DNA of 63,987 nucleotides, counting the filler, from Anaeromyces robustus (Eukaryota), in the NCBI GenBank assembly GCA_002104895.1. It is 3 parts of 3 records of this genome, joined end to end, with 100 filler letters (N's around TTAATTAATTAA, not from the genome) between each part and the next. Parts side by side here need not be neighbours in the genome. Positions count along the whole stretch, not along the records: positions 1 to 24,187 come from MCFG01000608.1; 2 more parts are not named here. One strand, 5' to 3'. The notes beneath the pieces were generated by a model. The model worked only from the letters and a program-made list of their open reading frames with translations. It searched no databases and was not told where the DNA came from. The stretch's first letter is position 1. Each line of letters begins with the position of its first letter. Below are positions 14,980 through 28,259 of the stretch, one piece after another. A program made the position numbers and the translations under genes.

Positions 14980-16625
14980 ATTTTTTTTTTTTTAGACTAA
15001 AGGAAGAGAATACACTTCCATGTTTTTTATTTATTATAAAATAGTTATTAATACATTTAGATTAAGTACATTAATAAAATAGATAAAAAGAAAAATTTCT
15101 ATCTAAAAAAAATCTACAACATAAATTTAATATAAAGAAAAATATAATAAATTTCTGAAATAATTATAATTTCAGTGTAGGGTACTGTTCGGATTTCACT
15201 CCTCTCTAAATGGTAAAATAATATAAAGCAAAGAAGTAACATCTGAATTAAAGATAGTGTGGTGTCCACTAAACTCTCCCTTGGGCAATCTTCATCATTT
15301 CTAGTAAAAGAAGATGACTCCGAAGGCCCTGTGGTAGAAATAACATCGCGATTCGAGATATTATTATTATGTCTTATCGATTCGACGTCGACGCTCTTGG
15401 TAATAATGGGTGTTGATTTATACCGATCAAATAACAACTCCAAAAAGCTGCATATGACTGGTACTGTTTTTGTTAGATATTCAGCCAACCCCACAAAGTA
15501 TGGAACAGGAAACTCTTTTGAACTTTTATAAAGATGTTCAATTAAATGCTTCCGTTCCCCTTTATCGAAATGCAGCTCTTCTAGAGCTGAAGTTCCACCA
15601 AGAAGGAATAGATATATTTTATGGTTGATATATTTTTTTCATACTCTAAGATTGAGGTGTAATTGTTATATAAAGAGTGTCTCTTTATTTTGTCTGCAAA
15701 TGTGATGAAGAGGTCATTGATGAAATCTAGTGAATTCCATCTAATAAGAGAAAAGAAAGGGCAGTCAAAGATCCAATGTTCAAAGGATTGCTCTCCTTGT
15801 TGACAGCAGGGGCAATAAGAAGGGCATTCTTTTGAAACCTTTCCACTCTTATAGGCTATTTTCGAGTTATATACATATCCACAGCGTAAACGTATTATCC
15901 ATTTGATACCTAGATTAATATGAGGGTATTCATAACCCAACATAATAATATGTTTAGAATCACAAAATTTATATTTATCATAGTTTTTACCTTTAATTCC
16001 TTGTTTTTTAGCAAGATCATTCCAGTACCAATTTTTAATTTCTCTGTATTCACTAATTGACACATTTAGGAGTCTTTCCACTAATGAACTAGATTTAACC
16101 GCTCAAGAAGAGAATCTATTAATTCTTTCATAATGTAAAACAAGATCTTTAATAATACAATGTGAAATTTTCCATTTTTTGAAGCACTTAACTTGTCTAG
16201 CAGCGTAAACTCCTGCGATATGAGGTATCTGAAGGTTTCGAGAGAGAGCATAAGTACTCATATAGCTATACCTTTTATCCAAGGAGACTTTAGGAATTAC
16301 ATACATATTAAGATAGAAGGTAGGTTTTAAATAATCAGGAGGTTCTGTAAAAGACATAGGTTTGATTACCATAGTAACACATTTTTGAATACCAAAAGAC
16401 ATTTCATTTAGATCAGCCCATTTTAAAACTCTTTTTAAAATTTTTTGTAATCTTTTTTCAGAAGGTGCTTAAAGGACGATGTCATCAGCAAAAAATCCAC
16501 CACAGCAGTGTTTATCACCAATTTTAACACCGAGATTTTCACAATTATTTAAAATATCATTAATAAAAAGATTAAAAAGAATGGGTGAAAGAGGACAGCC
16601 TTGTCGAACACCTCTATTTATATTA
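14980..16625 (-). mobile_element. 5'-truncated decayed LINE: RT core, C-terminal zinc knuckle, 3' UTR and poly(A)
   Basis: Minus strand reads RGVRQGCPLSPILFNLFIND...CCGGFFADDIVL*APS...MSFGIQKC, then IRLRCG...CPCCQQGEQSFEHWIFDC and VPYFVGLAEYLTKTVPV. The T-tract at ~14981 is the poly(A) tail. Stops, frameshifts and an internal deletion are present. Confidence 0.92.
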
Positions 16626-16629
16626 TTAA

Positions 16630-17080
16630 TCTTTATTTATATTATTAATTTAAAAGAACATATATGTGACATATATATTACATTAAAGAAAGAAATATAT
16701 AATACATAAAATGTAAATTAAATACAAGTAATAAAAGATACAAAAAATAAATAAAATTTATTACAGATATTAATCAAATTAAAATATTAAATAAAAAAAA
16801 AGGAAAGAAGTTAAACTTCTAACTTCTCCCATTCAACGAATGAGATGTCATTCGAATCCGTATCGGAATAAATTCCATGCCTTATCTTTTCGACGTCGAC
16901 GCCCTTGAAGCCGCCCGGAGTGTTCTTATTGTTATTATACCAATTGAGAAGAATCAGAAAGGATATACTCACAATTGGCATAACAACAGTAAGAAAGTAC
17001 GACAGACCCACAATATACGGAACAGGAGACTCAGATGAACCTTTGAAAAGTTGTCCATGCCATTGTCTCCAGAGGACTAA
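16630..17080 (-). mobile_element. 3'-end fragment of a related LINE family
   Basis: ESPVPYIVGLSYFLTVVMPIV...GVDVEKIRH resembles VPYFVGLAEYLTKTVPV...SVDVESIRH of the adjacent LINE; followed by an AT-rich 3' UTR. Confidence 0.75.
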
Positions 17081-17089
17081 AAAATGATA

Positions 17090-17220
17090 AAATATTTTTT
17101 AAAAATATTGATCAAATTAAAAAGGTTAAATAAATAAAAAAGAAAGTAGTCAAACTTTTAACCTCCAATTCAACGAATGGAATACCATTTGAACCCATGT
17201 CAGAATAAATTTATGTCTAT
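17090..17220 (-). mobile_element. Third, very short LINE 3'-end relic
   Basis: 17105-17212 (ATATTGATCAAATTAAAA...GTCAAACTTTTAACCTCCAATTCAACGAATGG...GAATAAATT) is a diverged copy of ~16767-16875. Confidence 0.65.
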
Positions 17221-17727
17221 TTTTTTTTTTTTACTTTCACACTATTGAACAGATATAAATAACATAAATATATATATATATATTTAATTTTTACAAAATT
17301 AAATATTTATTATTTTTATTATTATTTTTATTATTATTTTTATTATTATTTTTTATTATTTTTTATTATTTTTATTATTTTTATTATTTTTATTAATAGA
17401 TTTTTTCATATTACATATTACTAGTATACTGTTTCAAAATTTTTATTATAATTATCAATTAAAATTACTTGTTTAAAAAATTTTTTTTCCATTTTTTATG
17501 CAAAATGATAATTATAATAAAAATTATGCAAAATGATAATTATAATAAAAATTATAATAAAAATTATGCAAAATGATAATTATAATAAAAATTATAATAA
17601 AAATTTTTTTTCTTTAAGTAACTCTTGAAAGAATTTATACAAATAATATTTAATTTTTATAATTTTAAAAAAAAAATTAATGTTGTAAATTGATTTTTAA
17701 TTTATCATTAGCAATAGATATTACACT

Positions 17728-17901
17728 TTATAAATTTTCATAATAACCTGTAAGAATTTCTATACCACTATTTTCAAATTTTGAAGGAATTGATTTAATA
17801 TCTTCATTATTTCTTAAATCTCTATAGAACAAATTAATTATAATATGAAAATTAATTAAAATATAATTATTATTATTATTTATTATTATTATTATTTATT
17901 A

Positions 17902-17937
<36 letters not shown>

Positions 17938-20475
17938 AGTTATTATATTATAAAATAATATTATAAATTAGTTATTATAAGTAATATATATTTATTTAAA
18001 TATTTACATTAAGTTTTTTAAGTTTCATAATTCCAGATGGAATATCTGTAATTTTGTTGTTATATAATATTCTATATATTAATTTGATTATTTAATTTTT
18101 TAAAACAAAATACAAGAATATTATTTAAGGAAATATTAAATTATTATAAAATGTAAATGACGAAAATATTTTAATTAATTTATTAGTTTATCAATATTAT
18201 TAACTAATTATTATTATTCGTTTTTATAAATATATAAATATTTACAATTCTTGAAGATTATAAAATTTCAAAAATCCTGTAATTTTAGATAAGTTATTAT
18301 TACTTAAATCACTGTATATTGTAATGTGTTGAGTTGATTTTTTCATTTTTTATTATAAAAATTAGAATAAATATAATAAAATAAATATAAAAATTAGAAT
18401 AAATATAAAAAATAAATATAAAAATATTTTAAATGGAAAAATAAATTTAAAAAATAAATATAAAAATATTTTAAATGGAAAAATAAATTTAAAAAATTAA
18501 TTATTATAATTATCAATATTTACAGTGATTTAAGATTTTTAAGTATATTTAATGGATATGGCATAGTAGAAAATGAATTTTTACCTAATAATCTATATAT
18601 TAATTTAATTAATTTTTTAAAAGAAAATACAAAAAAAAATATATTTAAGACAATATTAAAATATTAGAAAATTGTAAATGATAATAATATTTTTAAGTGT
18701 ATTTTCTCTTTTTTTAATTTATTAATATTACTAACTAATTATTAGAATTCGTTATATAAATATTTACAATACTTCAAGATTACTTAAATCGTCAAGTCCT
18801 TTAAAATTTTCTAAACCATTATCACTTAAATCTCTGTATATTGCAATGAGTTGAGTTGATTTTTTCATTTTTTATTATAAAAATTAGAATAAATATAATA
18901 ACATGAAAATAAAAATATTTTAAAAGGAAAAATAATTTCTATTAAAAAATTAATTATAACTATAAATATTTACAATGATTTAAGTTGTGTAAGTTTCAAA
19001 AGTTCAGATGGTACTGTAGATAATTTATTTCCACTCAGTATTCTATATATTAATTTAATTAATTTTTTAAAATAATATACATACAAAAACATATTTAAGA
19101 TAATATTAAAATATTAAAAAATTATAAATGAAAATAATATTTTAATTTTATTTTATTCTTTTTTTTAATTTATCAATATTATTAACTAATTATTAATATT
19201 CTATTTATTATAAATATTTACAATACTTCAAGACTTCTAAGTTTCCAAATATCTTCAAGGTTAATTGAAATATTATTACTTAAATTTCTGTAAAATGATG
19301 TTTATTGATTTAATTAGTTCATTTTTATAATAAAATTTAGAATAAATAATAAAATAAAAATAAAAATTATTTTTATTTGAAAAAAATTTTTTATTAAAAA
19401 ATTAATTATTATAATTTATCAATATTTACAATGATCTAAGTTTATTAAGTTGCTCAAGTCCAGAAGGTATTTCAGATAATTTATTTCCACTCAATGATCT
19501 ATATATTAATTTGATTAAACAATTTTTTAAAAGAATATACAATAATATATTTAAAATATTTGAAAATTGTAAATTAAATAATATTTTGAACTTTATTTTT
19601 TTTTGTTAAAATTTATCAATATTAATTAATTATTAATAGTCATATTTATAAGTAATTTACAGTTCTTGAAGTTTACTAAGTTTATTAATTTCAGAAAATT
19701 TAACTAACATATTATTATTTAAATCTCTGTATAATGAAGCATATTGATTTTATTATTTTATTTTTTATAATAAAAATAAGAATAAATAATAAAATAAAAA
19801 TAAAAATATTTTAAATTTAAAAGTAATTTTTATTAAAAAATTAATTATTATAATTATCAATATTTACAATGATTTAAGTTTATTAAGTTGTACAAGTCCT
19901 GACGGTATATCAAATAATCCATTTCCACTCAATGATCTATATATTAATTTGATTAAATAATTTTTTAAAAGAATATACAATAATATATTTAAGACAATAT
20001 TAAAATATTAGAAAATTGTAAATTAAATAATATTTTGAACTTTTTTTTTGTTAAAATTTATCAATATTAATTAATTATTAATAGTAATGTTTATTAATAA
20101 TTTACAATTCTTGAAGATTACTAAGTTTCTCAATATTTGGAAAGTCATCTAATCTATTATTACTTATATCTCTGCATAATGAAGTATATTTATTTGATTA
20201 TTTTATTTTATAAAATAAAATTTAGAATAAATTTAGTAGATTAAAAATAAAAATATTTTAATTTGAAAAAAATAAATTGGTTTAAAAATAATTAATTATT
20301 TTATTTATAAATATTTAATCGTTAATATTCATATCTATATGTACTTACAATTTCAAAAGGTTTGTCAAATTAGTAATCCCGGTTACATCTTTAACATAAC
20401 AATCTTTTATTGTTCTTCATAATGTAATGCATTAAATTTATTTATTTGTATTTCAAATAAAAAATAAATATATTA

Positions 20476-20555
<80 letters not shown>

Positions 20556-21262
20556 ACAATTATTATTTTTTTTTTTGTGATTTTTAAATGTAATGAATAT
20601 ATATTTAAAAATATAAAAATCAAATAAAAATATAACAATATATATCTATACAAAACTAATTAAAAATGACTATTATATTATGATTAACAAAAATTTTCTT
20701 TATTTTTCTTTTATTTACAATTCTTCTAAAGTAATTATTTTACTAATAATAGATGGAATTCCACTAGTATAATCTTGATCATGAATTTCTCTGTAATAAA
20801 TAAAAATTAGTTATATATTAATATATATAATATTCTTTATTTCAATTAATATAAATTCTTTATATATATTTACTTACAAACTATATATATTATTTTCACT
20901 ATTCATTTTACATATAAAATTATTTGATTCACAATTTTTACAAACTTCCTCTTTTAATTTATCACATGTCAAGCATTTATTAATATTATTTTGTTCATAT
21001 GAACTTTTATGATAATTAAATAATATATTATATTATATTATATATTATATATTTGAATATATCAATTATTAAATTATTTATTATATTCTATTTTTAATTT
21101 ATAATTATAAATTTATAATAATAATTTAATTATATAATTACACTGAAACATTTTCATTATCAATTGTATTCGGAATAGACTCCAGACAATTATAAAAAAT
21201 AAAAAAAGTTTTTTTATAATTAGTAATAACAAAAATTATTAATATTAATATTATTATTATTA

Positions 21263-21303
<41 letters not shown>

Positions 21304-21320
21304 TATTATTATTATTATTA

Positions 21321-21358
<38 letters not shown>

Positions 21359-23600
21359 TATTATTTATTTTATTTTCATTTATCTTTATTAATAATTAAT
21401 TATTGATTATTGATTTTGAATAATATATTATTCTTTTATATACTAACAATCTTTTAAGATTAATAAGATTTCCAATTGTTTCAGGAATTGAAGAGATTTT
21501 ATCATTTAGTAAATATCTTTATAATATTATCAGTTAATTGACAAAATATTAAAATATAATAATAATATAAAAAAAATGTAATATATTTATTTTATTTAAG
21601 TATATAAGTATATATAATAAAATTAATAGTATAAACATAAAGAAATATGATATTTTTATTATTTATTATAATTTACAATTCTTTTATGGATGTTAACTCA
21701 AAAATAACATCTGGAATACCCGAACTAAAATCTTGATTATTAATTTTTCTATAATATACAATTATAATGAATCATTTTTAATATAAATATTATATTTTTT
21801 TTTTGTCTTTCAAGTATAATAATTTATATAAATATATATAATCTTTAATATTTATCAATTAAACATAATAATAAAACAAATTTACAAGTGATATATTTTG
21901 TCACTACTATTAACTACACATTCAAAGTCATCGCCATTACATGAAGGACATATTTGATTTTTTAATTCATCACACGAATAACAATAACTTTTATTATTGT
22001 TTTCGAAGGATCTATTAAAATAATTCATTTATAGGTATAATTGATATAATTGATATAATTGACATATATATATATAGGAATATATTTTTTAATTAAATTA
22101 ATTATAATTAAATGATGTATTTGATTTAATAAAAATTTTAGTAGTTTTCTTAAAAAATATCTTACACATATGTTTTCCCAACAAGTTTTGATGGTAATTC
22201 ATTTATACAATTATTATCTAAAACTCTTTAATAAAGATTTTTTAAAATAGTTTTTTTACAAAATTTAATTTAATGAATAAATAATGTATCATTAATACAA
22301 TATTTTATGTATTAAAAATAAAAATATATTATATTCAAAAAAATTATATAATAAAACTTTTTACTTACAATTCTTTTAATTTTTTTAAATTTCCAATTTC
22401 ATTAGGAACTATATAATAAAACTTTTTACTTACAATTCTTTTAATTTTTTTAAATTTCCAATTTCATTAGGAACTGACTTTAAATTATTTTTTTTTAATA
22501 ATCTGTAAATTAACACAATAAAAAAATATAAAAAATTTAATGCATAAATAAAAAAATAACAAAGTATTCATATTAATAATTTTAATTAATAATATGAAGT
22601 ATTTCAACTATATATTTATGATTCTATTATCATTTTTAATGTTTTTTTATTAAATATACTAACAAATTTTCAAGATTAGAAAGATTTCCAATTGATGTAG
22701 GAATTGATGTTAATTTACAATTAGTTAAATATCTATTATATATAATATAATATATGTTCGATTTGACGATAACATAATAAATATATATTATATTATTAAT
22801 TAATAAATTTATTAATATTAAATTTATTATAATATTAAATATATTAAATAATAAATTTAAAAATTTAAATAAATATTCATATATGAAAATTATTAAATCT
22901 ATTCTTTTTATTTAATAATTATTTTGTATTATATATATATTTTCTTACAAACTAATAAGTGCTTTAAGATTTCCAATGGATGAAGGAAGAGAACTTATAT
23001 CATTATTACTTAATTTTCTAAATATAAAGTGTATTACATAAAAAAAAATAGTAATAAGTTTAATTACATTTAAATTAAAAAAAAAATTAAAATAATAGAA
23101 AAATAAAATATTAACGAATTATATTATTATTTTTAAAAATTTTAAATTTTATTTCATCAATAACTTACAAATATTTGAGATTATTGAGTTTTCCAATATC
23201 CTTAGGAATAGTTGTTAATTTATTTGTTCTTAGATCTCTATTTATAAATATAAATATATTATTTTTATGGATTATTCAGTAATTTGTTTTTATTTTTATC
23301 ATTATTCAATTTAAAATAATATACTCTAATATATTTTTCTAATGATGAATTATTAATATTAATTATAAATGTTATATTTTATTTTTTAATAAACTTACAA
23401 TCTTTTAAGTTTCTTAAGATTTACGATTTTTTGAGGAATTGATGAAATTTTATCATTAATTAAATATCTTTTTGTATTATTAATTAGAAAATTTAAAAAT
23501 ACAAAAAAAATAATAATAAATTTAATTATATATTATTTAAATAAAATAATTTAAATATATGTATAATTTAAATTATAAACACTTATTTATTTATCATAAC

Positions 23601-23652
<52 letters not shown>

Positions 23653-24033
23653 TTATTATTATTATTATCGATTTATTATATATAAACATACAAATCCTTT
23701 AAAGAAGTTATACTGAAAATATTATCTGGAATACCACTACTAAAATCTTGATTATTAATTAATCTATATATAAAAATAATTTATAAAAAAATTAATGATC
23801 CATTTTAATTATAGATATAAATTAAATAATTGAAATATATTTAATAATTATTAAGAAATATTTATATTATTGATTACTAACAAAGAATATATATTTCCAT
23901 TTTCATCAGTTTTACATTGAAAATTATCATTACCACATGAACTGCAAATTTGTTTTTCACTTTGTTACATGTAAGAGTTGCTGCAAGAGCAACTGAAATA
24001 TATGATAAAATAAATAATAGAATTTTTATTCAT
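17728..24033 (-). CDS. Multi-exon (~26 exons) leucine-rich-repeat protein, probably secreted, one LRR per exon; possibly partly disrupted
   Basis: GT-AG bounded 66/69/72-nt exons each encode one LRR, e.g. 23763-23692 LINNQDFSSGIPDNIFSITSLKDL, ~23237-23169 DLRTNKLTTIPKDIGKLNNLKYL, ~22732-22664 YLTNCKLTSIPTSIGNLSNLENL, 20171-20106 DISNNRLDDFPNIEKLSNLQEL, 19936-19868 SLSGNGLFDIPSGLVQLNKLKSL. Signal-like IKILLFILSYISVALAA in exon 1; last exon DLRNNEDIKSIPSKFENSGIEILTGYYENL*. Defects: two frameshifts in exon 1, no clear acceptor at ~21200, and a 64-nt exon at 18071-18008. Confidence 0.88.
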
Positions 24034-24187
24034 TCTTTTTACTTTTTAAATAATTTATTATAAATTATATATATATAAAATACAAATAAACGAAAAAGAA
24101 AAAATATAATAAAAAAAAATGAAAAAAGAAAAAAAAAAAGAAAGAAAGAAAAATAAAATTATTGAGCTAAATAATAAAGATTTATAT

Positions 24188-24287
24188 NNNNNNNNNNNNN
24201 NNNNNNNNNNNNNNNNNNNNNNNNNNNNNNNTTAATTAATTAANNNNNNNNNNNNNNNNNNNNNNNNNNNNNNNNNNNNNNNNNNNN
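24188..24287. other. Artificial contig linker N44-TTAATTAATTAA-N44
   Basis: Exactly 100 bp with stops in all six frames at its centre; identical to the linker at 48162. Confidence 0.97.
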
Positions 24288-25401
24288 ATATAATTAAATA
24301 TAATTAAATATATATATAGTTTTAATTAAAATATATATAATAAAAATATTATTATATATATATGGTTTTAATTAAACAATTAAACAATTAATATAATTTT
24401 GTTATTATCATTGGTCAAAAATAATTAAAATTTTAATTAAAAGGTTTTGTCATTCTAATTTAAATTCAAAAATAAGTAAGCCACATATTAATAGAAATAC
24501 GCCATACATTTATAATTCAACTTTATGTAAAGATGGAGGTGCATTTCGAAAACTTGAATTTCGTAAAAGTGCTATCGTGCTGGACATAATTTACTTATTA
24601 TAGAATAAAATTTTGAAATTGAGATCTTGAAATTGCAATTTCATAATTTTGAAAATTATTTAAGCTATAACGAAAATTGAAAATTTAAAACAAAAGGCTG
24701 AAATAATATTTACTATATTTGGAATGAAAGTTATAACTAAATAAATTAAATCCAAAATGAAAATTTGAAATTTAAAATTTGAAATTTAAAATTTGAAATT
24801 CAGAAAATAAGCAAACAATTTAAAATTTAAATAAAATAATTATCTTAAATTTAATGAAGTTATAAATAAATAATTAAATATATATTAGCGATATAATTTA
24901 TGACCCAAGATTTATTGCAGGACTTTTAGGAAACTTACACTATGAAATATTAATGGCAGGGACCAGGAGAATTTGCATATTTTCTTTTATAAGAAATGAA
25001 TAAAAAAAAAATGACACAACTTATAATATTTATCATTTAATGGTCAATTTCATTTTTATTTTTTATTTTTTTATTTTTATTTTTATTCTTTATTTTTATT
25101 TTTATTTTTATTTTTTATTTTTATTTTTATTTTTATTTTTATTATTTATTTTAGAATATAAAACAATTTATATTCTTTAAAAAAATTTTTTTTTGCTTAA
25201 TATATAAAATATTTATATATTATTGAATTAAAAAGAAAATAAATTAATAAAATAAAAATTAAATAAAGAATTATATAAAGAAATAGAAAGGAAAGGAAGT
25301 AAAAAAAAATTTTTTAAGAGGAAAAAAAAAAGATAGTTTTTTTTGTTATTTTTTTTTTTTTTTTTTTGATTACTGATTAATAATATAAATATTATAAAAT
25401 A

Positions 25402-26010: not shown

Positions 26011-28212
26011 CTATAAATAATCAACTAAACCTAAAATGGCATCTTCTGGGAAATGAGTTTTAGCATAAAATAATACAGTTCTTTTACGATTATCTTTTAT
26101 ACTTAAATCAGCTCCTCTTTTATATAATTTTAAATAATATTTACCAAAATCATTCCATTTTAAATTAATATCCATAGCTATATACATTAATAAGGTACGT
26201 CCATTTTCATCTACTAAATTAACATCTACATCTTCTACATTTAATAATAAATCTAATGTATCATAATATCCTTCTTGTACTGCTATCATTAATGCTGTTT
26301 TACCATTATCATTTTGTTTATTAATATTTACTGCATTAACATATAATTTTTCTTGTATATATTCATCACTTAATCCTTGTTGATGTTTACAACATAATAA
26401 AGTTTGTATAATAGATCTATAATCTATATATTTATATTTTAATAATATTTGTATAGTTTTATTACGTCCATGTTTGGCTGCAAACATGATTGCTGTATTA
26501 CCCTTATTATCTTTTATATTTAAATTGGCATGATATTGTAATAATACTTGAATAGTATTATAAAATCCTCGATCACTAGCTAACATTAATGCTGTTTGAC
26601 CTTTGAAATTTTGTAAATCTACTAATTTTGGATGATGTTTTAATAATATACTAATAATTTCTGTATTTTGATTAATTTCTCTAAAAGTTGGCATACGTAC
26701 GGCATAATTTTGACAAGCACTTGTTAATACTGTGTCTTGACTTTTACTACGTAAATAAACATTGGCTCCATAATCTAATAATAATTTTACTATATTAAAA
26801 TGCATTAATCTTGCCGCTACCATAATAGGCGTTTCTCCTTTAAAATTATGAATATTTGGATTAGCCCCTCGACTTAATAAAAGTTTTGCTAAATCAGCTT
26901 GTTCATTTTTTATTAAACAAACATACATTAATGGTCCTGGACATCTTACTGTTTTACAATTTACATCTCCTCCATATTCTATTAATAATTTAAAAGCAGA
27001 TTTATAATAATTTATTTTTTCACCATTTAAATCTAATGTAACATCACCACCATCAACAAGAAATTCTAATTCTCTAATCGTTAATAATAATTCATTTTCT
27101 TTTTCTTTATTTTGTATATTGACATCAGCACCATGTTGTAAAACTAATTTAAATACTTCTATATTACGACTTTTATTAGCATACATTAATGCAGTATCAC
27201 CACAATCATTTTGTAAGTTAACATCTGCTCCGTATTGAAGTAAAAGTTTTACAATTTCTAAATTACCTGTCCAACATGCATGCATTAATGCTGTACGTCC
27301 ATATTTTTTTTGTATATTTGGATTAGCATGATGTTCTAATAAAATTCTTACTAATTCTACATTATCTTTACTTGTAGTAATCATTAATACTGTTTTACCT
27401 CCTTCAAATTGATCATTAATATTAACTTTACATTCTAAAAGAAGATTAACAATATTTATATAAGAAAATCGACAGGCATATAAAAATCCATTATTACCTT
27501 TTTTATTTTTTGCAAAAATATTACAACTATTTTCAATTAATAATTTAACAATATCAAGTGATCCAACTCTACATGCTATAATAAAAGCGGTTTCTCCCTT
27601 TTTATCTTTCATATCAATATAATTAATTTTACAATTAAAACTATCTGATAAAAATGGTAATAATAATTTATTATATTTTCTACTACAATCTTTTGTTGAT
27701 TGTAAACAATTTAAACTCTTTTTTTTAACAATTTTATTAATATTATCATTACCATTATCATTATTATTACCATTATTATTACTATTATCATTATTATTAC
27801 CATTATTATTATTAATATTATTATTATGATTTTGATTATTTATTGCAGTAATATCACTTGTAAGTTGTGATGTTATATTGATCGAATTTAGGGTTGTGTT
27901 ACCAAGATTATTATTAATAATATTAGGATTTAAAATATTAAATGAATTATTATATGTTGTTGTTGTAGTTGTTGTTGTTGTATTTATAGCAGTTGTAGTA
28001 ATATTTGTAGTAGTAGTATTTGCAATATTATTACTACTAAAAGAATTAATTGTATTGACATTAGAATTAATTGTACCAATTGTAGTATTACCAATACCAA
28101 TATCTACATTATTAGTTAATATACTGTTTATAGTACCTATTGTTGTATTACCAATACCATTATAATTATGATTACTACTAATATTATTAATATCATTATC
28201 ATCATCATTATC

Positions 28213-28259
<47 letters not shown>

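What the first reader, a model, noticed from the sequence alone, without database searches (positions are those of the whole stretch)
17728..24033. Hidden LRR gene made almost entirely of symmetric single-repeat exons: candidate combinatorial recognition locus
Seen: about 20 exons of 66, 69 or 72 nt each encode exactly one LRR, and nearly every intron is phase 2, splitting the same Leu codon (TT|gt...ag|A), so any exon can be skipped, duplicated or swapped in frame. The residues at and after the splice junction, the predicted concave beta-strand, vary strongly (DLRTN, KLSNN, YLTNC, LLKKN, SLSGN, ILSGN, LLGKN, ILYNN) while the scaffold is conserved. There is a signal-peptide-like N-terminus and no transmembrane segment. 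Established: one-LRR-per-exon genes are substrates for exon shuffling in other eukaryotes, e.g. brown algal ROCO genes. Inference: a diversifying secreted binder or immune-like receptor repertoire in a gut fungus. The ORF track misses it entirely.
Basis: partly seen in the sequence, partly recalled or inferred. Interest (0 to 1): 0.85.

Follow-up and report, generated by a model that had tools for sequence, protein, structure and literature searches.

The report
Secreted LRR gene, one repeat per exon
This is a real but slightly damaged gut-fungus gene for a secreted leucine-rich-repeat protein in which each repeat is its own exon; that layout lets repeats be gained and lost over evolution, but nothing here shows it works as a mix-and-match immune receptor.

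Summary
On the minus strand (24033-17728) lie 19 clean single-LRR exons of 66/69/72 nt, all AG...GT. Of 25 junctions, 21 split a Leu codon in phase 2. Shuffles of the locus give 0.3 such exons against 20 observed.

The gene has three LRR modules. Each opens with a 41-residue Cys-rich cap exon. A profile of that cap finds 7 proteins among 1.84 billion, six of them Anaeromyces robustus models deposited as 'L domain-like' or 'RNI-like'. Paralogues carry the same cap-plus-7-LRR module ahead of CotH or GH1 domains.

That argues against a diversifying receptor.

Module 3 grew by tandem duplication of a 445-bp two-exon unit, and its exons diverged 1.4-3.1 times more than its introns. Whole-repeat gain and loss is evident.

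The copy carries four lesions. Two are frameshifts in exon 1.

Verdict: a new member of a known kind, of moderate interest.

The parts
23882..24033 (-). E1: ATG, signal-peptide-like stretch and Cys-rich cap 1. Broken as assembled: ATG in frame 0, hydrophobic stretch in frame +1, cap back in frame 0.
   Evidence: Three-frame translation. tblastn of P0005 gives two HSPs in different frames, 24008-23955 (83%) and 23964-23866 (70%).
23692..23763 (-). E2: 72-nt LRR exon, module 1 repeat 1, with the 'SGIP' 24-residue type.
   Evidence: 76% identical to P0002 residues 6-34
23399..23467 (-). E3: 69-nt LRR exon, module 1 repeat 2
   Evidence: 83% to P0005
23169..23237 (-). E4: 69-nt LRR exon, module 1 repeat 3 (DLRTN)
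   Evidence: 91% to P0005
22949..23017 (-). E5: 69-nt LRR exon, module 1 repeat 4 (KLSNN)
   Evidence: 87% to P0013
22664..22732 (-). E6: 69-nt LRR exon, module 1 repeat 5 (YLTNC)
22434..22502 (-). E7: 69-nt LRR exon, module 1 repeat 6 (LLKKN)
22345..22475 (.). Perfect 65-bp tandem duplication (2.0 copies, 100%) that repeats the 3' part of E7, its donor and 24 nt of intron. It leaves a partial LRR copy in the intron.
   Evidence: partial profile hit at 22409-22368
22166..22225 (-). E8: 60-nt short closing LRR of module 1 (VLDNNCINELP...), ends GT|, Val junction
   Evidence: 79-86% to P0001/P0002/P0004
21886..22011 (-). E9: 126-nt Cys-rich cap 2, phase 2 on both sides
   Evidence: 70% to P0001 residues 27-70
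21677..21748 (-). E10: 72-nt LRR exon, module 2 repeat 1
21448..21516 (-). E11: 69-nt LRR exon, module 2 repeat 2
21142..21191 (-). E12 remnant: closing LRR of module 2 (NCLESIPNTIDNENVSV) with a gtaatt donor. The 5' 10 nt and the AG acceptor are replaced by a T-rich run. Repeats 3-6 of module 2, present in relatives, are absent between E11 and here.
   Evidence: relatives read ...MLDNNCLESIPNTIDTDKVSV|SYEQN. No LRR profile hit between 21447 and 21004. My coordinates were off; these are recounted.
20878..21003 (-). E13: 126-nt Cys-rich cap 3
20719..20790 (-). E14: 72-nt LRR exon, module 3 repeat 1
20349..20414 (-). E15: 66-nt LRR exon
20106..20171 (-). E16: 66-nt LRR exon (type A, unit 1)
19868..19936 (-). 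E17: 69-nt LRR exon (type B, unit 1)
19661..19726 (-). E18: 66-nt LRR exon (type A, unit 2)
19430..19498 (-). E19: 69-nt LRR exon (type B, unit 2)
19222..19287 (-). E20: 66-nt LRR exon (type A, unit 3)
18974..19042 (-). E21: 69-nt LRR exon (type B, unit 3)
18768..18833 (-). E22: 66-nt LRR exon (type A, unit 4)
18524..18592 (-). E23: 69-nt LRR exon (type B, unit 4)
18246..18311 (-). E24: 66-nt LRR exon (type A, unit 5)
18008..18071 (-). E25: last type-B LRR (ILYNN...), only 64 nt up to the GT. It is 5 nt short of its sisters, so the phase into E26 is broken. Read-through ends at TAA after VNI.
   Evidence: 5 gap columns; profile score 25.8. Relatives end this repeat ...KLKLV|DLRNN.
17728..17821 (-). 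E26: final degenerate LRR and C-terminus (...SGIEILTGYYENL, then stop), in frame only if entered in phase 2
   Evidence: 59-69% to the C-termini of P0005/P0004/P0002
18451..20317 (.). Tandem repeat of period 445 bp, 4.2 copies, 77% matches. One unit is a 66-nt exon, an intron, a 69-nt exon and an intron.
   Evidence: intron and exon identities

Best explanation
This is a 26-exon gene of an anaerobic gut fungus. It encodes a secreted, non-membrane protein made of three LRR modules. It belongs to a small family so far seen only in Anaeromyces, deposited as 'L domain-like' or 'RNI-like' protein.

Shown:
- Each module opens with a 41-residue Cys-rich cap exon (C-x2-C-x7-C-x2-C-x4-F-x-C ... IY-x-L), followed by LRRs that are each one 66/69/72-nt phase-2 exon.
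- In evolution, whole repeats have been added and removed in frame. Module 3 grew by tandem duplication of a 445-bp two-exon unit. Module 2 kept 3 of 7 repeats.
- Modules 1 and 2 have repeat-position-specific concave residues that are conserved among paralogues.
- Paralogues carry the same cap-plus-7-LRR module in front of CotH or GH1 domains.

Inferred:
- The cap-LRR module is a fixed-specificity binding or anchoring device that takes secreted proteins to a conserved partner, on the fungal surface or on the substrate.
- The long alternating 22/23-residue array of module 3 is the fast-evolving part.
- The symmetric exons work as a germ-line device for changing repeat number. They are not, on present evidence, a splicing-based repertoire generator.

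Status of this copy: it carries four small lesions. These are two frame changes in A-runs of exon 1, a lost acceptor at E12, and a 2-5-nt loss at the E25 donor. They are either assembly errors or very recent decay.
For: Gene model and non-randomness. The E2..E24 reading frame is open over 538 aa, and no segment is hydrophobic enough for a transmembrane helix.

Family: the cap profile hits 7 of 1,835,955,588 representatives. Six are A. robustus models. Pfam finds LRR_8, LRR_4 and LRR_14 in all six at E<=1e-12, and CotH in P0006. The precomputed domain lists give PF00232 (GH1) for P0011 and PF08757 (CotH) for P0013. Window exons are 60-91% identical to these proteins, exon by exon.

Collinear 7-repeat module.

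Concave face conserved between paralogues: 0.370 against 0.561 convex. The same positions differ at 0.851 between repeats of one module.

Tandem growth. Introns of the units are 81-96% identical, exons 61-87%. The exon/intron divergence ratio is 1.39-3.11 in 6 of 6 unit pairs, with p<0.05 in 5 of 6. pN/pS is 1.03-2.74.

The divergence happened under coding constraint: unconstrained placement of the 107 observed changes leaves all 9 exons open in 0.12% or fewer of 5000 trials.

Structure: the AF2 model of paralogue P0003 has two capped LRR solenoids, with 10-residue block means of pLDDT from 76 to 97 over residues 21-410. The nearest solved structures are Leptospira LIC LRR proteins and SHOC2.
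Against:
- As assembled, the gene cannot be translated from its ATG, and E25 to E26 is out of phase.
- The anchoring role rests only on domain fusions in deposited gene models, several of which are visibly imperfect. P0002 is fused to a reverse transcriptase, and P0001 and P0004 are truncated.
- The partner is unknown.
- The position classes (concave, convex) come from the generic LRR geometry, which I recalled; they were not measured on a structure of this protein.
- Pairwise counts are not independent, so the Fisher p values are only indicative.
- In the A. robustus relatives P0001 and P0002, the repeats of module 3 differ more at concave positions (0.58-0.69) than at convex ones (0.42-0.44). 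This is the pattern a diversifying surface would give.
- Part of the exon-over-intron excess is due to fast-mutating G/C sites. With A<->T changes only, the excess is significant in 3 of 6 unit pairs.
Confidence: 0.6

Rival explanations
1. Recently dead gene: the locus is a decaying member of the family and makes no functional protein. The tidy exon array is what is left of a gene that was functional until lately.
For: Four lesions are present:
- The ATG frame stops after 22 codons, and the signal-peptide stretch is in another frame (two-frame HSPs).
- The E12 acceptor is gone and four repeats of module 2 are missing.
- E25 is 5 nt short and breaks the phase.
- A 65-bp duplication sits at the E7 donor.

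Other signs:
- The window's type-A repeats of module 3 have lost the FPEIEKL motif kept in relatives, with scaffold differences of 0.36 against 0.20-0.25.
- pN/pS is about 1 or above.
- Retroelement remnants lie next door.
- The neighbouring 1112-codon ankyrin ORF is intact, so frameshift errors are not everywhere in this assembly.
Against: - 19 of 19 LRR exons keep AG/GT, and the frame is open over 538 aa.
- Under unconstrained change, all 9 exons tested stay open in 0.12% of trials or fewer.
- The three small lesions (those in E1 and at the E25 donor) sit in A5, A5 and GT-GT-like contexts, typical of assembly indels, and E1 lies about 150 nt from N runs.
- Skipping the E12 remnant keeps the frame.
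Confidence: 0.25
2. One reading: the symmetric exons are skipped, repeated or swapped during splicing, so that one locus yields many secreted binders and acts as an immune-like recognition repertoire.
For: - Every internal exon from E2 to E24 is phase 2 on both sides, so any skip is in frame. Skipping E12 in silico indeed keeps the frame.
- The deposited A. robustus model P0005 (133 aa) consists of the equivalents of E1, E3, E4, E5 and the tail of E26. That is an exon-skipped product, if it rests on a transcript.
- Brown-algal genes with the same layout have several splice variants (PMC11378527, passages).
- In P0001 and P0002, the repeats of module 3 vary most on the concave face.
Against: - No transcript was seen here.
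- Concave residues of modules 1 and 2 are conserved between paralogues, and exon order there is collinear.
- In the window's own module 3, the concave face is the less variable one.
- The same module is fused to enzymes (CotH, GH1) in paralogues, which fits a fixed binder.
- There are no LRR exons on the opposite strand or spare cassettes in the introns, apart from one 65-bp partial copy and the E12 remnant.
- Inverted repeats in the locus are only 70-78% A/T-rich matches, with no docking/selector-like pairs.
- P0005 may simply be a poor gene prediction.
Confidence: 0.08
3. Artefact: the array is a chance pattern or an assembly collapse or expansion of a repeat, not a gene.
For: A perfect 65-bp duplication and a 445-bp tandem repeat lie in the locus. 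N runs lie beside the locus.
Against: - 20 candidate exons are observed against a mean of 0.3 in shuffles.
- There is exon-by-exon homology to six deposited proteins.
- The repeat units are only 77% alike, too diverged for a mis-assembly of one unit.
Confidence: 0.02

Closest known systems
Anaeromyces robustus 'L domain-like' / 'RNI-like' proteins ORX71036 (P0005), ORX68906 (P0002), ORX77341 (P0001), ORX68905 (P0004), ORX83851 (P0003), ORX83717 (P0006), and P0013
   Same: They share the Cys-rich cap, the same ordered 7-LRR module, and the same alternating 22/23-residue third array. P0005 has the same C-terminal ...TGYYENL. Exons are 60-91% identical.
   Different: - None is identical to the window's gene, and the window's product is not in the collections.
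- The window's module 2 has 3 repeats, not 7.
- P0006 and P0013 end in CotH. P0011 (an unnamed JGI record) ends in GH1. P0003 ends in an unassigned 165-residue domain.
- Their exon-intron structures could not be fetched.
Brown-algal type I LRR exon genes (Ectocarpus ROCO and 46 other LRR loci; Zambounis et al. 2012, PMC3341825; Teng et al. 2024, PMC11378527; passages read)
   Same: One LRR per exon, phase-2 symmetric exons, local duplications within one locus, inactivated exons left in introns, and many damaged copies.
   Different: - There the exons are uniformly 72 nt and begin at G-x-x-P. Here they are 66/69/72 nt and begin inside the LxL Leu codon.
- ROCO proteins are cytoplasmic with ROC-COR. 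This protein has a signal-peptide-like start, Cys caps and no ROC-COR.
- No LRR exons lie on the opposite strand here.
- Positive selection on the concave face is reported there, and is not found here for modules 1 and 2.
Glycoprotein-hormone receptor ectodomains (LRR exons all phase 2; as quoted in PMC11378527)
   Same: An extracellular LRR domain built from single-repeat phase-2 exons, with a fixed ligand-binding concave face.
   Different: Those are animal 7-TM receptors. Here there is no membrane segment, and there is no sequence kinship beyond the LRR.
Leptospira interrogans LIC10831/LIC11098/LIC12759 and human SHOC2 (closest solved structures)
   Same: The 23-residue LxxLxLxxNxLxxIPxxIGxLxxL repeat type. 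phmmer E values are 6e-72 to 1e-49, and these are the top Foldseek hits for paralogue P0003.
   Different: No Cys-rich caps and no module repetition. They are bacterial or cytoplasmic proteins, with 26-31% identity in the top 10 Foldseek matches.
Lamprey VLR and insect Dscam (repertoire generators; recalled, not searched)
   Same: Only the idea: many alternative repeat units at one locus.
   Different: VLRs are assembled from cassettes without splice sites. Dscam uses mutually exclusive exon clusters with docking and selector RNA pairs. Here all units have ordinary AG/GT borders in one linear gene, and no such pairs were found.

Membership tests
Leucine-rich repeat proteins (Pfam clan LRR: LRR_1, LRR_4, LRR_8, LRR_14) | Tandem 20-29-residue repeats with LxxLxLxxN/CxL | tested here: met
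   The consensus of the 19 exons is xLxNNxLSxIPxxIxxLxxLxx. Single exons reach only E 0.003-0.08 for LRR_4 or LRR_1, in 4 of the 15 single-LRR exons scanned; the other 11 gave nothing. The homologous full proteins score E 1e-12 to 1e-57.
Anaeromyces cap-LRR family (ORX71036, ORX68906 and relatives) | 41-residue Cys-rich cap with C-x2-C ... C-x2-C-x4-F-x-C ... IY | tested here: met
   Three copies in the window. Their profile retrieves only this family.
Anaeromyces cap-LRR family (ORX71036, ORX68906 and relatives) | Ordered module: 24-residue 'NNQDFSxGIP' repeat, then LYLxND, LDxRxN, LKLSxN, LYxxNC, LLLxxN, and a closing xLDNNC repeat | tested here: met
   Module 1 has all seven in order. Module 2 has repeats 1, 2 and a remnant of 7.
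Anaeromyces cap-LRR family (ORX71036, ORX68906 and relatives) | N-terminal signal peptide | tested here: inconclusive
   The hydrophobic stretch is homologous to the N-termini of P0003, P0005, P0006 and P0013 but is out of frame with the ATG. No signal-peptide predictor was available.
Brown-algal type I LRR-exon / ROCO genes | One LRR per symmetric phase-2 exon | tested here: met
   definition from PMC11378527
Brown-algal type I LRR-exon / ROCO genes | ROC-COR GTPase domains | tested here: not met
   No Ras, Roc or COR family in the six relatives. No further coding exon in the locus beyond caps and LRRs.
Brown-algal type I LRR-exon / ROCO genes | Spare or inverted LRR exons in introns; non-collinear exon order between paralogues | tested here: inconclusive
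   No hit on the opposite strand. There is one 65-bp partial copy and one inactivated exon. Order is collinear in modules 1 and 2 and not collinear in module 3.
Brown-algal type I LRR-exon / ROCO genes | Alternative splicing of LRR exons | not testable with these tools
Plant-type extracellular LRR proteins (PGIP, LRR-RLP/RLK) | 24-residue repeats with LxGxIP throughout, paired-Cys N and C caps, usually a TM or kinase | tested here: not met
   Only 3 of 19 exons are 24-residue 'SGIP' repeats. The cap motif differs. There is no TM. The best solved matches are Leptospira proteins and SHOC2, and plant receptors rank lower.
Splicing- or assembly-based repertoire loci (Dscam, VLR) | Mutually exclusive exon clusters with docking/selector pairing, or cassettes without splice sites | tested here: not met
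   All units have AG/GT. Inverted repeats are only 70-78% A/T-rich matches. The definitions are recalled.

The most novel reading that the evidence does not exclude
Anaeromyces fungi may use in-frame skipping of single-LRR exons to secrete a graded set of LRR binders from a few loci. The 133-aa deposited model P0005 (equivalents of E1, E3, E4, E5 and the tail of E26) would be one such isoform. The fast-diverging, independently expanded third arrays would be the variable recognition part. This would be a fungal counterpart of the brown-algal LRR-exon system, acting outside the cell in the gut.
Probability: 0.08. Interest if true: 0.75.

Novelty: new member of a known kind. Interest (0 to 1): 0.35.

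Why it matters
The one-repeat-per-phase-2-exon layout, and its use for evolutionary gain and loss of repeats, is already described in brown algae and in vertebrate hormone receptors. The architecture itself is therefore not new.

Three things are worth keeping:
- A lineage-restricted secreted LRR family of anaerobic gut fungi has its own Cys-rich cap. I found no paper on it in four literature searches, judged from the listings only.
- The same capped 7-LRR module precedes CotH and GH1 domains in paralogues. This hints at a protein-targeting system other than the fungal dockerins.
- It is a clean example of tandem exon-pair duplication in which exons diverged faster than their introns while staying open.

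If the module does anchor enzymes, it bears on how gut fungi organise their extracellular machinery.

Tried and rejected
- Whole genome: none is held.
I note only that 1182 of 6421 31-mers lie wholly in my exons (0.18).
- Protein searches with single exons: cap exon E9 against longer proteins found nothing. The 23-column LRR alignment was too short for the tool. P0005 against proteins of near length found only itself.
- Metagenome scan with the cap alignment: the one locus, L001, is an unrelated B-box-like zinc finger plus phosphatase ORF at 43-53% GC. It is a chance CxxC match.
- Pfam on the cap exons gave only sub-threshold zinc-ribbon-like hits.
- Rfam on 17000-24180: no family.
- Inverted repeats as docking/selector candidates: only low-complexity 70-78% matches.
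- ESM Atlas on P0003 residues 18-215: only generic, mostly prokaryotic LRR clusters, no lead.
- Exact look-up of two neighbouring ORF products: not in the collection.
- A short 9-nt 'intron' that would bypass the TAA in exon 1 was considered and rejected as far too short.
- Introns better conserved than exons as proof of positive selection was rejected as proof. Shuffled introns already align at 0.59 identity, and G/C sites inflate exon change. I keep it as a signal, not a demonstration.

Full report
What is in the sequence.
The window is about 8-23% G+C per 2-kb bin. The region 17728-24033 has no long ORF on either strand. Read on the minus strand, it resolves into a chain of short exons with canonical borders.

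A scan for AG|exon|GT units of 57-84 nt that stay open when entered in phase 2 was refined. It gives 19 exons that each encode exactly one leucine-rich repeat: 3 of 72 nt, 10 of 69 nt and 6 of 66 nt. All 19 have AG and GT.

In my 26-exon chain, 21 of 25 junction codons are Leu split after the second base (19 TTA, 1 CTA, 1 CTT), 2 are Val, and 2 are defective.

The pattern is not chance.
- The same scan restricted to 66/69/72 nt finds 20 units in the 6.3-kb locus. One of these is a false exon created by a 65-bp duplication.
- It finds 6 in all the rest of both strands.
- 200 shuffles of the locus give a mean of 0.295 and a maximum of 3.
- A profile of the 19 exons finds further significant matches only inside 18011-23762 on the minus strand, and none on the plus strand of the locus. 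The training exons match by construction.

Anatomy.
Besides the 19 repeats there are three Cys-rich exons: the second half of E1, and E9 and E13 at 126 nt each. There is a 60-nt closing repeat (E8) and a remnant of its counterpart (E12). There is also a last 64-nt repeat (E25) and a final exon ending ...TGYYENL.

The protein is therefore three modules, each a cap followed by LRRs.
- Module 1: cap plus 7 repeats.
- Module 2: cap plus repeats 1 and 2 and a remnant of 7.
- Module 3: cap plus 13 repeats. Ten of these alternate between 22 and 23 residues.

Module 3 coincides with a tandem repeat of period 445 bp, 4.2 copies, 77% matches. One unit is two exons and two introns.

The spliced E2..E24 chain (E12 remnant skipped) is open over 538 codons. 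It has 13 Cys and no stretch hydrophobic enough for a membrane helix (highest 19-residue Kyte-Doolittle mean 1.03). Rfam finds nothing in the locus.

Lesions.
- Exon 1. The ATG frame reads MNKNSIIYFIIYFSCSCSNSYM and stops. The signal-peptide-like IKILLFILSYISVALAATLTCNKVK is in frame +1, and the cap (EKQICSSCGNDNFQC...) is back in the ATG frame. Relatives read this stretch continuously (MNIKFLLTSLSYISITFAATLTCNKVKKQICSSC in P0005). tblastn splits P0005 into two HSPs in different frames. Both frame changes fall at runs of A.
- E12. It keeps NCLESIPNTIDNENVSV and a donor, but its first 10 nt and its AG are replaced by a T-rich run. The four repeats that relatives have before it are absent.
- E25. 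It is 5 nt shorter than its sisters. Relatives end that repeat ...KLKLV|DLRNN, so the loss includes the donor region and the phase into E26 is broken.
- A perfect 65-bp duplication repeats the 3' part of E7 with its donor.

I cannot say whether the three small indels are assembly errors or real. N runs begin about 150 nt upstream of the ATG. On the other hand, a neighbouring 1112-codon ORF is intact.

Relatives.
Single exons are too short for Pfam. Of the 15 single-LRR exons scanned, 4 reach E 0.003-0.08 for LRR_4 or LRR_1 and the other 11 give nothing. The cap exons give only sub-threshold zinc-ribbon-like hits.

A profile of the three cap exons (A1) was run against 1,835,955,588 representative proteins and found 7. 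Six are Anaeromyces robustus gene models named 'L domain-like protein' or 'RNI-like protein'. One is a 55-aa metagenome fragment.

A search with P0002 gave 982 proteins at E<=1e-20, of which 120 are listed. Apart from the query itself, only three of these are 55% or more identical: P0003, P0011 and P0013. All the others are generic LRR proteins at 24-39%.

Window exons are 60-91% identical to these proteins, exon by exon, and none is identical. P0005 is closest in E1, E3 and E4 and shares the ...TGYYENL end.

The domain content of the family is informative.
- P0006 and P0013 have a signal peptide, cap-LRR module(s) and then CotH.
- P0011 has two modules and then GH1.
- P0003 has two modules and then an unassigned domain.
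- P0001, P0002 and P0004 have the long third array, like the window's gene.
- Several models are visibly imperfect. P0002 starts at an out-of-frame ATG and is fused to a reverse transcriptase, and P0001 and P0004 are truncated.

An AlphaFold2 model of P0003 with the 8-row family alignment gives two capped LRR solenoids, with 10-residue block means of pLDDT from 76 to 97 over residues 21-410. Each cap is a helix plus a hairpin. The C-terminal domain is unmodelled, with pLDDT below 50. The nearest solved structures are Leptospira LIC10831, LIC11098 and LIC12759 and SHOC2.

Is the concave face diversifying?
I assigned positions from the generic LRR geometry, which is recalled. Concave positions are x2, x3, x5, x7 and x8 of LxxLxLxxN. 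Convex positions are the non-scaffold positions after the Asn loop.

For repeats 1-6 of modules 1 and 2, I used 11 module instances: 2 from the window and 9 from P0001, P0002, P0003, P0006, P0011 and P0013.
- Left out: P0004 and P0005 for their fragmentary models, P0013 module 2, the closing repeat, and the extra Gly column of repeat 1.
- Between instances at the same repeat index, concave positions differ in 418/1130 comparisons (0.370) and convex ones in 1015/1808 (0.561).
- Between different repeats of one module, concave positions differ in 515/605 (0.851).

That is the mark of a fixed binding surface.

The window against P0002 alone is not informative (7/30 against 9/48, p=0.77).

In the window's module 3 the concave class is again the less variable. 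Type A gives 24/50 against 55/70, and type B gives 14/30 against 37/48. E15 and E25 were left out.

Against my reading, in P0001 and P0002 the repeats of module 3 differ more at concave positions (0.578 and 0.693) than at convex ones (0.442 and 0.424). Two degenerate repeats were left out.

All these pairs are non-independent, so the p values are only indicative.

Exon dynamics.
Modules 1 and 2 are collinear in every paralogue, but their length varies by whole repeats: 3, 4, 6, 7 or 8.

In module 3, the number and order of repeats differ between genes, and the nearest repeat is often in the same gene. Examples are P0002 r8A/r9A at 91% and the window's E17/E19 at 78%. The arrays therefore grew independently.

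Within the window's array, introns are 81-96% identical between units and exons 61-87%. Exon divergence exceeds intron divergence 1.39-3.11-fold in all 6 unit pairs, with p<0.05 in 5 of 6. With A<->T changes only, the excess is significant in 3 of 6. Nei-Gojobori pN/pS is 1.03-2.74 for the units.

Controls: shuffled introns already align at 0.59 identity under the same settings, and shuffled exons at 0.34.

If the 107 differences from the type consensus are scattered without constraint, 4.5-5.0 of the 9 exons acquire a stop. All 9 stay open in 0.12% of 5000 trials with exon-like base targets, and in none with intron-like targets. The array therefore diverged fast but as coding sequence.

Interpretation.
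I read the locus as a member of an Anaeromyces-restricted family of secreted cap-LRR proteins. Possibly it has been damaged recently. The symmetric single-repeat exons explain how repeat number changes in the germ line.

Modules 1 and 2 look like fixed-specificity binders. Because the same module precedes CotH and GH1 in paralogues, I infer a targeting or anchoring role. This step is inference only. Module 3 is the fast-evolving part.

The combinatorial-splicing idea is not excluded, and the P0005 model is a hint in its favour.

No spliced product of this locus is in the protein collections.

Known and new.
One LRR per phase-2 exon, exon duplication, inactivated exons and alternative splicing are described for brown-algal ROCO and other LRR genes. 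PMC3341825 reports 72-nt exons. PMC11378527 reports phase 2, splice variants, and phase-2 introns in gonadotropin receptors. I read passages of both.

I found no paper on LRR genes of anaerobic fungi.
- 'Neocallimastigomycota' with 'leucine-rich repeat': 4 papers.
- 'anaerobic fungi' with 'LRR': 9 papers.
- 'Anaeromyces robustus' with 'leucine-rich': 0 papers.
- 'anaerobic gut fungi' with 'CotH' and 'leucine': 1 paper.
I saw listings only, and none was on the topic by title or abstract.

The family members are deposited only under generic names. I therefore rate this a new member of a known kind, of moderate interest.

Noticed in passing
window 15114-16468 (-), 16283-16609 (-) and 3274-3714 (+): Reverse-transcriptase-like ORF fragments lie directly downstream of the LRR gene and elsewhere (Pfam RVT_1 hit for 3274-3714). 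The pieces at 16609-16283 and 15464-15381 match the RT tail that is fused to the LRR gene in the A. robustus model P0002, at 58% and 86%. This is either shared synteny or the same element family.
   Followed up: partly
window 26011-29349 (-): An intronless 1112-codon ankyrin-repeat ORF (Ank_2 E 1e-109) in a genome where the neighbouring LRR gene has 25 introns. Its exact product is not in the protein collection.
   Followed up: partly
window 24188-24231 and 24245-24288: Two runs of 44 N, separated by 13 bases, about 150 nt upstream of the LRR gene's ATG. They are gaps or masked stretches. The promoter region is therefore unreadable, and exon 1 lies near a possible contig end.
   Followed up: no
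window 17496-17605: Perfect tandem repeats of 28 and 40 bp (100% matches) just downstream of the stop codon. Long TAT/ATT microsatellites lie inside introns at 17862-17951, 21235-21411 and 23601-23668.
   Followed up: no
P0005 (ORX71036, A. robustus): This 133-aa deposited model equals the cap exon plus repeats 2-4 plus the last 13 residues of the final exon, reached through an internal AG that also exists in the window's E26. It is either an exon-skipped transcript or a rescue by the gene predictor.
   Followed up: partly
P0003 residues 418-582; P0011 residues ~325-908: Paralogue P0003 ends in a roughly 165-residue domain with no Pfam match and pLDDT below 50. The unnamed JGI protein P0011 joins two cap-LRR modules to a GH1 glycosidase on a 3043-nt contig, which suggests a spliced transcript.
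   Followed up: no
L001 1-3124: A metagenome contig fetched by the cap patterns is unrelated. It holds a 995-aa ORF with a B-box-like CxxC zinc finger (CPSCNGDNFC) and a PPEF-type phosphatase with EF-hands, at 43-53% GC.
   Followed up: partly
window 12872-14461 (+), 39363-39905 (-), 44965-45825 (+): Other recognisable coding pieces in the window: an ankyrin-repeat ORF, an AAR2 C-terminal fragment and a Duc1-domain ORF.
   Followed up: no
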